NCBI RefSeq assembly: GCF_017348835.2 | Contig: NZ_CP071375.1 | Reading direction: 5' to 3' (one strand) | DNA: 64,000 nt | Source of the DNA: Escherichia coli | GTDB taxonomy: Bacteria; Pseudomonadota; Gammaproteobacteria; Enterobacterales; Enterobacteriaceae | In this document: positions 13,829 to 14,283 of the stretch, one piece after another | How positions within the stretch are numbered: the stretch's first letter is position 1 | How the letters are laid out: each line of letters opens with the position of its first letter | Made by a program: the position numbers and the translations under genes | Notes under the pieces: model-generated | Seen by the model: only the letters and a program-made list of their open reading frames with translations | Told to the model about the DNA's origin: nothing | Databases searched by the model: none

Positions 13829-14283
13829 ATTTTAGATCCGAACCGGGATTAGGTTGTTTCCTGCTGGCGACGTGGTACTGAGGAAAAAAGTAGGGCACCT
13901 ATTAGGCTTTGAAATGACTTGATGAGGAAAATTGTTGATGGCAAAAATGGGGCAAAGCGCTGCAAAAGGGGCAAAAAAGGGGCAAAAAAAGAGTGGGTTA
14001 TCGTAGCTTATTGTTGTCGCTGATGATATTTAACACATTGAAAAATAAGTAAAATACTTATGAGTCAGAGAGTTGTGATTTTTGCCCTTACTTGTTCAGG
14101 TTGTATTGTTCTTTCTTGCTAATTTCTTGATTTTGCGACATTTAAAAGCGACTCAATTCGTTATATGGCATCAGAAGAGTATGCGTCATGCCGGAACGCC
14201 CAGCATAAGAAATCTGATATAAAAACTGTGGCGTGTATGGTACGGATTAGAGGGGAAAATGTCAGCACATTTGCGAAATGAAT

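What the first reader, a model, noticed from the sequence alone, without database searches (positions are those of the whole stretch)
13939..13990. GGGGCAAA(A) tandem repeat tract at the prophage/core junction
Four iterations of GGGGCAAA with variable A-runs sit between the sit promoter region and uspF, roughly where the prophage right boundary (attR or ttcC remnant in K-12 Rac) should be. It could be a recombination scar, a slipped-strand phase-variable tract, or a G-rich protein-binding site.
Basis: seen in the sequence. Interest (0 to 1): 0.3.

Follow-up and report, generated by a model that had tools for sequence, protein, structure and literature searches.

The report
Integrase arm-binding sites of Rac prophage
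The GGGGCAAA repeat is most likely the set of accessory ("arm-type") docking sites for the Rac prophage integrase, lying 105-150 bp inside the prophage's right end; this is an expected part of a phage attachment site, not a scar or a phase-variable switch.

Summary
The repeat is real. It spans window 13940-13990 with an 11-bp period, and holds three exact GGGGCAAA units plus two degenerate ones. It is not at the prophage/chromosome junction. The 26-bp att core is at 14092-14117, and the tract lies 105-150 bp inside the phage arm of attR. It starts where conserved phage sequence begins; the cargo to its left differs between strains (sit operon here).

The same motif, in the same orientation and with 11-bp spacing, occurs twice in the other arm (attL), between ttcA and the intR stop codon. 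IntR carries an N-terminal arm DNA-binding domain (Pfam PF12167). An unrelated prophage at ttcA with a 70%-identical integrase keeps four GGGCAA sites at the same distances from the core (151/139/120/109 vs 150/139/120/109 bp), although the rest of the arm has diverged. Phages with integrases 31-43% identical to IntR show the same layout: two sites next to int and two to four sites about 160-200 bp away. The motif is TGCCCC (the reverse complement of GGGGCA) or, in phiCTX, GTTCCCA.

Unit number is nearly fixed: about 3% of genomes carry one extra 11-bp unit. Published EMSA shows that XisR does not bind a fragment holding the tract.

Verdict: arm-type integrase-binding sites, a new member of a known kind. 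Binding itself is inferred.

The parts
13940..13947 (+). Outermost P-arm site (GGCAAAAA, a weak variant; its C is 150 bp from the core). Conserved phage sequence begins here.
   Evidence: GGCAAAAATGGGG is invariant in 10 aligned attR arms. The STEC384 phage has GGGGCAAAA at the equivalent position (151 bp).
13949..13957 (+). P-arm site 2 (GGGGCAAAG; C 139 bp from the core), 11 bp after site 1
   Evidence: (pairwise identity 0.975)
13958..13967 (+). Spacer holding the pseudo-unit CTGCAAAA, probably not a site
   Evidence: It changes to CCGTAAAA in strains cq9 and ETEC1703 and to GTGCGAAA in STEC384. The equivalent 19-20 bp gap between site pairs is seen in the Stx1 phage and the Staphylococcus phages.
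13968..13978 (+). P-arm site 3 (GGGGCAAAAAA; C 120 bp from the core)
   Evidence: (pairwise identity 1.000)
13979..13990 (+). P-arm site 4 (GGGGCAAAAAAA; C 109 bp from the core), 11 bp after site 3
14031..14043 (-). IHF-like consensus TTTCAATGTGTTA (one mismatch to WATCAANNNNTTR) between the arm sites and the core; a candidate bending site
   Evidence: The TTGAAAAA block is conserved in alignment A1. Binding was not tested.
14080..14088 (-). Inverted AGGGCAAAA next to the core, probably not an arm site
   Evidence: It varies (GCTC, GTCC, ACCC) in divergent Rac arms and is absent from STEC384.
14092..14117 (.). 26-bp att core (attR copy): the true prophage/chromosome crossover region
   Evidence: Identical in attL (L003 22940-22965) and attR, and present in the attB of empty-site strains. 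Annotated as attB in phage Rac-SA53.
14088..14141 (-). ttcC remnant: the original 5' end of ttcA (17 codons plus stop), left behind by integration
   Evidence: Read from the sequence (MSQNQEISKKEQYNLNK*) and matched to the empty-site ttcA.
12818..13732 (-). sitA, the last gene of the sit cargo module. The module's homology to plasmid sit copies ends at about 13945, right at the first arm site.
14317..14751 (-). uspF, the first chromosomal gene beyond attR
   Evidence: RefSeq annotation of the 100%-identical record

Best explanation
The tract is the P-arm cluster of arm-type binding sites in the attachment site of a Rac-like prophage integrated in ttcA. IntR has two DNA-binding parts: C-terminal domains that bind and cut the 26-bp core, and an N-terminal three-strand/one-helix arm-binding domain. 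I infer that the N-terminal domain docks on the (G/T)GGGCAA(A/G) sites.

Four such sites, arranged as two pairs with 11-bp spacing inside each pair and 19 bp between pairs, sit 109-150 bp from the core in attR. Two more, also 11 bp apart, sit 53-64 bp from the core in attL, just before the intR stop codon. Sites spaced 9-11 bp apart lie on roughly one face of the helix. With IHF-type bends between the arm sites and the core, integrase molecules bound at the arms could bridge to the core and build the excision or integration complex, as in phage lambda.

What is shown: location, motif sharing between the two arms, the arm-binding domain in IntR, and conservation of the sites and of their distances across diverged phages. 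What is inferred: that IntR is the protein that binds, and that the sites are needed for recombination.
For: 1. Position. The tract lies inside attR's phage arm, 105-150 bp from the 26-bp core.

2. Boundary. In 10 attR arms, similarity starts at the first unit, while the upstream cargo differs (sit, the K-12 type, a tail-fibre module). Pairwise identity is 0.59 upstream, 0.92-1.00 in the sites, 0.84 in the rest of the arm and 0.985 in the core.

3. Both arms. The same motif in the same orientation, 11 bp apart, lies in the P' arm between the ttcA start and the intR stop (GGGGCAAATTGGGGGCAAA).

5. An unrelated prophage in strain STEC384, at the same site, has an integrase 70% identical to IntR. 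It keeps GGGGCATATAAGGGGCAAA in P'. It keeps four GGCAA sites in P at 151/139/120/109 bp from the core, against 150/139/120/109 in Rac, while the 104-bp spacer is only 45% identical in ungapped register.

6. Phages chosen only by integrase similarity (31-43% identity) have two sites 11 bp apart at or after the int 3' end, and two to four more sites 160-200 bp further on, across the core. The Stx1 phage has TGCCCCA spaced 11, 20, 11. Klebsiella KPP5665-2, Enterobacter CobraSix and Aeromonas pAEv1818 have (T/C)GCCCCA. phiCTX has GTTCCCA around its tRNA-Ser core.

7. IHF is bound in vivo at Rac attL, at TAAnnnnTTGATT between the core and the P' sites (PMC8407004). This corresponds to the lambda H' site.

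8. XisR does not shift the AttM fragment (K-12 locus L002 2863-3153), which holds the whole tract (L002 3003-3053) (PMC4632033).
Against: No binding or mutational data exist for IntR on these sites, so the assignment to IntR rests on architecture and comparison.

Excisionase genes travel with these integrases, so co-conservation alone does not separate Int from Xis.

The outermost Rac site is a weak variant (TGGCAAAA).

Phased A-runs would bend DNA on their own, so part of the conservation could be structural.

The held literature is incomplete, so an existing footprint may have been missed.
Confidence: 0.83

Rival explanations
1. The repeats are binding sites for the excisionase XisR or another accessory protein (Fis, a phage regulator), not for the integrase. 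Excisionases commonly bind tandem direct repeats in one arm and bend it.
For: XisR shifts a 294-bp attR fragment that includes the tract (PMC4632033). Direct repeats phased at about 11 bp also suit winged-helix excisionases. An excisionase gene sits next to int in all the proteobacterial relatives examined.
Against: XisR did not shift AttM, which contains the entire tract. The motif is in both arms, and right beside the int stop codon, which is unusual for Xis sites. The same motif and layout occur in Staphylococcus and Streptococcus phages whose integrases belong to the sister clade. The STEC384 arm has a separate TTGGCGT x3 repeat that is a better Xis candidate.
Confidence: 0.07
2. The tract is a protein-independent bend. 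A-runs phased at 9-11 bp curve the P arm so that it can wrap, and the G-runs are incidental.
For: A5, A3, A4, A6 and A7 runs recur every 9-11 bp, which is the classic pattern of intrinsically curved DNA.
Against: What is conserved across relatives is GGGCAA / TGCCCC, not the A-run length. STEC384 has GGGGCAAGA and GGGCAAGAAAA. Klebsiella KPP5665-2 and Enterobacter CobraSix have TGCCCCATCC with no A- or T-run. phiCTX has GTTCCCA. A bend may add to the function but does not explain the motif.
Confidence: 0.05
3. The tract is a slipped-strand phase-variable repeat or a regulatory element for sitABCD or neighbouring genes.
Against: In the spread sample, 56 of 59 full-length hits have the same length. 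K-12 Rac, which has no sit operon, carries the same tract, and plasmid sit copies lack it. The tract is more than 200 bp from the sitA start. The small ORFs annotated over it in some RefSeq genomes change frame with the 11-bp indel.
Confidence: 0.03
4. The tract is a recombination scar or non-functional junk left where the sit module joined the prophage.
For: The sit-module homology ends within a few bases of the first unit.
Against: The tract is present with other cargo modules and in K-12. Its site positions are kept to the base pair in an unrelated phage. It is better conserved than the rest of the arm.
Confidence: 0.02

Closest known systems
Arm-type sites of phage lambda attP (P1, P2 in the P arm; P'1-P'3 in the P' arm), bound by the Int N-terminal domain, with IHF, Xis and Fis bends
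   Same: The sites lie outside the core in both arms. The P' sites are tandem direct repeats about 10-11 bp apart, next to the int gene, with an IHF site (lambda H') between them and the core. The P sites are 100-150 bp from the core. The integrase has a separate N-terminal three-strand/helix domain.
   Different: The motif is GGGGCAA, not C/AAGTCACTAT. All Rac sites point the same way, whereas lambda P1 and P2 are inverted relative to the P' sites. The P arm has four sites in two pairs and P' has two. The arm domain belongs to a different Pfam family (PF12167, not the lambda type). No biochemical data exist.
attP of Stx-converting, Klebsiella, Enterobacter and Aeromonas phages and phiCTX, which carry IntBPP-1-subgroup (DUF3596/PF12167) integrases
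   Same: They share the integrase family (31-43% identity) and the layout of two sites beside int plus two to four sites across the core. The Stx1 phage even shares the 11-20-11 spacing of four P-arm sites and the TGCCCC motif core.
   Different: They use different chromosomal targets and core sequences. The flanking bases of the motif differ (TGCCCCAA or TGCCCCAT against TTTGCCCC). phiCTX uses GTTCCCA.
Predicted attP arms of Enterococcus phage phiEf11 (AAAGGGGCAAA direct repeats; PMC12540744)
   Same: The same GGGGCA(AA) direct repeats occur in both arms and were proposed there as integrase-binding sites.
   Different: The host is a Firmicute and the integrase belongs to the IntTn916-like clade. 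That assignment is also only a prediction.

Membership tests
Arm-type integrase-binding sites of a heterobivalent tyrosine-integrase attP | Lie in the phage arms, outside the crossover core, within about 200 bp of it | tested here: met
   Core at 14092-14117; sites 109-150 bp away. Empty-site strains share only 14092 onward.
Arm-type integrase-binding sites of a heterobivalent tyrosine-integrase attP | The same motif is present in both arms (P and P') and is unlike the core sequence | tested here: met
   GGGGCAAATTGGGGGCAAA lies in attL between ttcA and the intR stop. The core contains no GGGGCA.
Arm-type integrase-binding sites of a heterobivalent tyrosine-integrase attP | The cognate integrase carries a separate N-terminal arm-binding domain | tested here: met
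Arm-type integrase-binding sites of a heterobivalent tyrosine-integrase attP | Sites and their spacing are conserved in relatives while the surrounding arm diverges, and the motif changes in distant relatives | tested here: met
   STEC384: same distances to within 1 bp, with a spacer 45% identical. Six further lineages share the layout, and phiCTX switches the motif.
Arm-type integrase-binding sites of a heterobivalent tyrosine-integrase attP | Bending-protein sites lie between the arm sites and the core | tested here: inconclusive
   A published IHF peak lies at attL between the core and the P' sites (PMC8407004). The P arm has only a one-mismatch consensus match, and that paper saw no IHF peak at attR.
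Arm-type integrase-binding sites of a heterobivalent tyrosine-integrase attP | Direct binding by the integrase N-terminal domain, and a requirement for recombination | not testable with these tools
   Needs EMSA or footprinting and site mutagenesis. Nothing was found in the held literature.
Phase-variable simple-sequence repeat (contingency locus) | Unit number varies often among close relatives | tested here: not met
   56 of 59 sampled full-length hits have the same length, two have +11 bp and one has -1 bp. About 20 sit-type genomes have 6 units.
Phase-variable simple-sequence repeat (contingency locus) | The repeat sits in an ORF or a promoter spacer, so that the count switches expression | tested here: not met
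   There is no conserved ORF: the annotated small ORFs shift frame with the 11-bp indel. The tract is shared with sit-less K-12.
Excisionase (recombination directionality factor) binding sites | Bound by the cognate excisionase | tested here: not met
   Published EMSA: XisR does not shift AttM. Primer mapping here shows that AttM contains the whole tract.
att core / integration scar | The sequence is shared by attL, attR and attB at the crossover | tested here: not met
   The tract is absent from attB. The shared 26-bp sequence lies 105 bp to its right.

The most novel reading that the evidence does not exclude
The Rac tract may be one instance of a deeply conserved attP 'code'. In this code, pairs of TGCCC(C) motifs (GGGGCA on the other strand) spaced 11 bp apart sit immediately 3' of int, and a second cluster sits about 160-260 bp away across the core, often with 11-19/20-11 spacing.

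The layout is shared by IntBPP-1-type integrases of Proteobacteria (Rac, Stx phages, and Klebsiella, Enterobacter and Aeromonas phages). It is also shared by IntTn916-like phage integrases of Firmicutes (Staphylococcus aureus phage 47, pneumococcal prophages, phiEf11).

If true, it would allow attP boundaries to be predicted from sequence for a very large class of prophages. It would also raise the possibility of arm-site cross-talk between co-resident prophage integrases, for example Rac-like and Stx phages in E. coli O157.
Probability: 0.5. Interest if true: 0.5.

Novelty: new member of a known kind. Interest (0 to 1): 0.3.

Why it matters
It gives a concrete map of the Rac attachment site: four P-arm sites, a candidate bend site, the 26-bp core, the IHF site and two P' sites, about 260 bp in all. 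The held literature describes only the 26-bp core and XisR binding to a 294-bp fragment.

It suggests why very different cargo modules (sitABCD here, others elsewhere) all end at the same nucleotide. Cargo may be tolerated only up to the outermost arm site.

In this strain intR and xisR are annotated as complete genes, both cores are identical and the arm sites are present. The 25-kb sit-carrying element is therefore probably still excisable, which bears on the stability and spread of the sit island.

The motif shared with Stx-phage integrases is a testable lead for cross-talk between prophages.

Tried and rejected
1. Rfam scan of 12500-16500. It found only MicC at 16250-16370 and nothing at the tract.

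2. Promoter and terminator scan of 13600-14400. Nothing above chance at the tract.

3. Window-wide motif enrichment. GGGGCAAAA with up to one mismatch is not enriched overall (29 found, 23 expected). The signal is the clustering and the exact copies.

4. IntR relatives in IMG/VR. All 80 loci were 99-100% identical E. coli copies, and most ended 3 nt after int, so they gave no divergence.

5. Reconstructed attP against the phage collection. It found only prophage-end fragments and no contiguous Rac attP. A contiguous attP-like junction was found instead in the chromosome of strain Trh52.

6. The inverted GGGCAAAAA beside the core was considered as a fifth site. It was rejected because it varies in divergent Rac arms and is absent from STEC384.

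7. The middle unit CTGCAAAA and the third P' unit TTTGCAAC were considered as sites. They were rejected because they are not conserved.

9. Citrobacter phage phiNP (29% identity) was uninformative, because an ATPase gene rather than attP follows int.

10. My first reconstruction of the STEC384 attP picked the wrong core copy. This was corrected.

11. Literature searches for the motif, or for 'arm-type' together with Rac, found no description of these sites.

Full report
**1. The observation**

Window 13940-13990 reads GGCAAAAA-T-GGGGCAAAG-CG-CTGCAAAA-GGGGCAAAAAA-GGGGCAAAAAAA. Tandem Repeats Finder calls an 11-bp period with 4.8 copies. Exact GGGGCAAA occurs three times in the 64-kb window, all within the tract. 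With one mismatch allowed, the 9-mer GGGGCAAAA is not enriched window-wide (29 found, 23 expected). The signal is therefore the local cluster. The C of each unit lies at 13942, 13953, 13963, 13972 and 13983, giving spacings of 11, 10, 9 and 11 bp, about one helical turn each.

**2. Where it is**

The window is 100% identical to E. coli strain PE164. The gene order is sitDCBA (minus strand, ending at 13732), the tract, a remnant of the ttcA 5' end, uspF, ompN, nifJ.

Megablast against 5,426 complete E. coli genomes shows three breakpoints:
- Plasmid-borne sit copies match only up to about 13945.
- K-12 Rac matches from 13939 onward.
- Strains with an empty site (ttcA directly next to uspF) match only from 14092 onward.

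The 26-bp sequence TTGTTCAGGTTGTATTGTTCTTTCTT is shared by attL (L003 22940-22965), attR (window 14092-14117) and attB. Phage Rac-SA53 annotates it as the attachment site.

The prophage/chromosome junction is therefore at 14092-14117. The tract lies 105-150 bp inside the phage arm of attR. In this strain the element spans 24,995 bp between identical cores. It has annotated intR and xisR genes and carries the sit operon as cargo.

**3. The other arm**

At attL, the 51 bp between the phage-supplied ttcA start codon and the intR stop codon read AATGGGGCAAATTGGGGGCAAACTTTGCAAC. That is two GGGGCAAA units in the same orientation as the tract, 11 bp apart, 53 and 64 bp from the core.

**4. The integrase**

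IntR (411 aa) matches Pfam Arm-DNA-bind_2 (PF12167, formerly DUF3596) at residues 5-69 with E = 3.9e-26, and also the catalytic domain. An AlphaFold model of residues 1-100, built from eight family members, has pLDDT 83 and three strands followed by a helix.

**5. Variation within E. coli**

The arm is present in 1,528 of 5,426 genomes. In an alignment of ten attR arms spanning 77-100% identity, similarity begins at the first unit. Upstream, the sequences belong to different cargo modules: sit, the K-12 type, a DUF4376 tail-fibre module, and a YkgJ gene.

Mean pairwise identity by segment:

| Segment | Identity |
|---|---|
| Upstream of the tract | 0.59 |
| Four GGCAA/GGGGCAAA units | 0.92-1.00 |
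| Remaining 88 bp of the arm | 0.84 |
| Core | 0.985 |

The middle unit CTGCAAAA becomes CCGTAAAA in the two most divergent arms, so it is a spacer rather than a site.

**6. A diverged integrase at the same site**

Strain STEC384 carries a different prophage in ttcA, with a baseplate and other myovirus-like genes. Its integrase is 70% identical to IntR. Its P' arm keeps GGGGCATATAAGGGGCAAA, although the flanking intergenic bases differ.

Its P arm reads AGGGGCAAAATTAGGGGCAAGAGAAGTGCGAAAGGGCAAAAAAAGGGCAAGAAAA. The GGCAA units lie 151, 139, 120 and 109 bp from the core, against 150, 139, 120 and 109 in Rac and K-12. The 104 bp between the last site and the core is only 45% identical in ungapped register. 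Conservation of the motif and of its exact position, against a diverged background, is the strongest single argument for function.

**7. The wider family**

The following phages were chosen only because their integrases resemble IntR. All show the same plan when read in the int direction.

| Phage | Identity to IntR | Sites at or after the int 3' end | Sites across the core |
|---|---|---|---|
| Stx1-converting phage | 43% | 2 x TGCCCCA, 11 bp apart | 4 more, about 200 bp on, spaced 11, 20, 11 |
| Klebsiella KPP5665-2 | 42% | 2 x TGCCCCA | 2 more, about 196 bp on |
| Enterobacter CobraSix | 42% | 2 x TGCCCCA | 2 more, about 197 bp on |
| Aeromonas pAEv1818 | 35% | 2 x GCCCCA | 2 more, about 197 bp on |
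| phiCTX | 31% | 2 x GTTCCCA | 2 more, about 162 bp on, around the tRNA-Ser core |

In the Stx1 phage the annotated attachment site lies between the two clusters. TGCCCC is the reverse complement of GGGGCA. The Rac tract is thus the P-arm half of a layout conserved across this integrase family, and the motif changes in the most distant member.

**8. Other proteins**

Liu et al. showed that XisR shifts an 'AttR' fragment but not an 'AttM' fragment (PMC4632033). Mapping their primers places AttR at K-12 locus L002 2984-3277 and AttM at 2863-3153. Both contain the whole tract (L002 3003-3053). The tract is therefore not sufficient for XisR binding.

Kasho et al. found an IHF peak at Rac attL, on TAAnnnnTTGATT (PMC8407004). 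By my mapping this consensus lies between the core and the P' sites, the position of lambda H'. In the P arm there is only a one-mismatch IHF consensus, at 14031-14043, and the same study saw no IHF peak at attR.

**9. Interpretation**

The best-supported reading is that the tract holds the P-arm arm-type sites of IntR (confidence about 0.83).

- Shown: location, motif sharing between the arms, an arm-binding domain in the integrase, and conservation of the sites and their geometry across diverged phages.
- Inferred: that IntR binds them and that they are needed for recombination.
- Rivals: excisionase or other accessory-protein sites (0.07), a pure A-tract bend (0.05), a phase-variable or regulatory tract (0.03), a scar (0.02).

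**10. Comparison with what is known**

The tract works like the lambda arm sites. It differs in motif, in all sites pointing the same way, in the 2+2 / 2 arrangement, and in the Pfam family of the arm domain.

I found no description of arm sites for Rac in the held literature. That library lacks most subscription journals.

The same GGGGCA(AA) repeats were proposed as integrase sites in both arms of Enterococcus phage phiEf11 (PMC12540744).

**11. Noticed along the way**

A scan of viral contigs for GGGGCAAA-N(1-6)-GGGGCAAA gave hits with a 3-base gap (11-bp period) in 63 of 112 distinct contexts. Seven of the ten adjacent long ORFs tested were tyrosine integrases of about 380 aa that end just before the repeat. 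Three contigs with enough flank show a second pair 180-255 bp further on.

That scan was biased by the motif. I therefore also picked Firmicute phages by integrase similarity alone. Staphylococcus phages 47 and A12-4PHSA25 have TGCCCTT twice, 11 bp apart, right after the int stop, and a cluster about 190 bp on with spacings of 19 and 11. A pneumococcal phage has TGCCCC twice, 11 bp apart, after the int stop. The layout, and the TGCCC core of the motif, therefore seem to extend across phyla.

**12. Verdict**

The finding is real and now has a well-supported interpretation. It is an ordinary component of a phage attachment site, newly mapped for Rac: a new member of a known kind, of modest interest (0.3). 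The cross-phylum conservation of the motif and its spacing is the part that might repay further work.

Noticed in passing
Loci L188, L186, L118, L206, L189, L164, L102 (IMG/VR contigs); L227, L228 (Staphylococcus phages); L229 (pneumococcal phage): In Firmicute-type phages, pairs of TGCCC(C/T) motifs 11 bp apart lie immediately 3' of tyrosine integrase genes. Where the flank is long enough, a second cluster lies 180-255 bp further on, in the staphylococcal phages with 19 and 11 bp spacing. This is the same layout and motif core as Rac.
   Followed up: partly
window 12256-12768 (minus strand): sitB is truncated in this strain: a 167-aa ORF, annotated by RefSeq as incomplete and missing the N-terminus. 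The sit transporter carried by this prophage may therefore not be functional.
   Followed up: no
window 16250-16370 (+): MicC small RNA (Rfam RF00121, 125 bits) lies between ompN and nifJ, as expected for this chromosomal region.
   Followed up: no
L218 5465-5495 (minus strand; STEC384 attR arm): Three direct repeats of TTGGCGT(A/T) lie just core-side of the four arm sites in the STEC384 phage. They are candidate excisionase sites and have no counterpart in the Rac arm.
   Followed up: no
L210 300-560 (E. coli O84:H7 strain Trh52): A contiguous attP-like arrangement (P arm, core, P' arm, truncated int) sits in the chromosome. It looks like the junction of tandem or decayed Rac-like elements. 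Its P' sites are mutated (GGGGCATATTGAGGGCAAA).
   Followed up: partly
L220 1497-1545 (plasmid pE401651_221): A plasmid carries a fragment of the Rac P arm behind a DUF4376 tail-fibre pseudogene. The tract is collapsed to two units (GGCAAAAATGGGGCAAAAAAAGAGTGGG) and there is no core.
   Followed up: partly
K-12 locus L002 2863-3277 (equivalent to window about 13800-14215): Published EMSA fragments map so that XisR binds 2984-3277 but not 2863-3153. Its site must therefore lie in or beyond the core (3154-3277). That is an unusual place for an excisionase and is not explained here.
   Followed up: partly
L207 304-429; L209 241-414 (equivalent to window about 13940-14060): Some RefSeq genomes annotate small hypothetical proteins (WP_001614539.1, WP_001157925.1) across the tract. 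The reading frame changes with the 11-bp indel, so these are probably spurious calls.
   Followed up: partly
(E. coli genome collection): 2,914 genomes have the attL side (core, P' arm and int 3' end) but only about 1,511 have the P arm. About half of the Rac-like elements have therefore lost or replaced their right arm and are probably unable to excise.
   Followed up: no
window 1-798: By the RefSeq annotation of the identical record, the window starts inside iteS. This is the S8-peptidase gene of the IteA/IteS anti-phage pair, carried in the same prophage.
   Followed up: no
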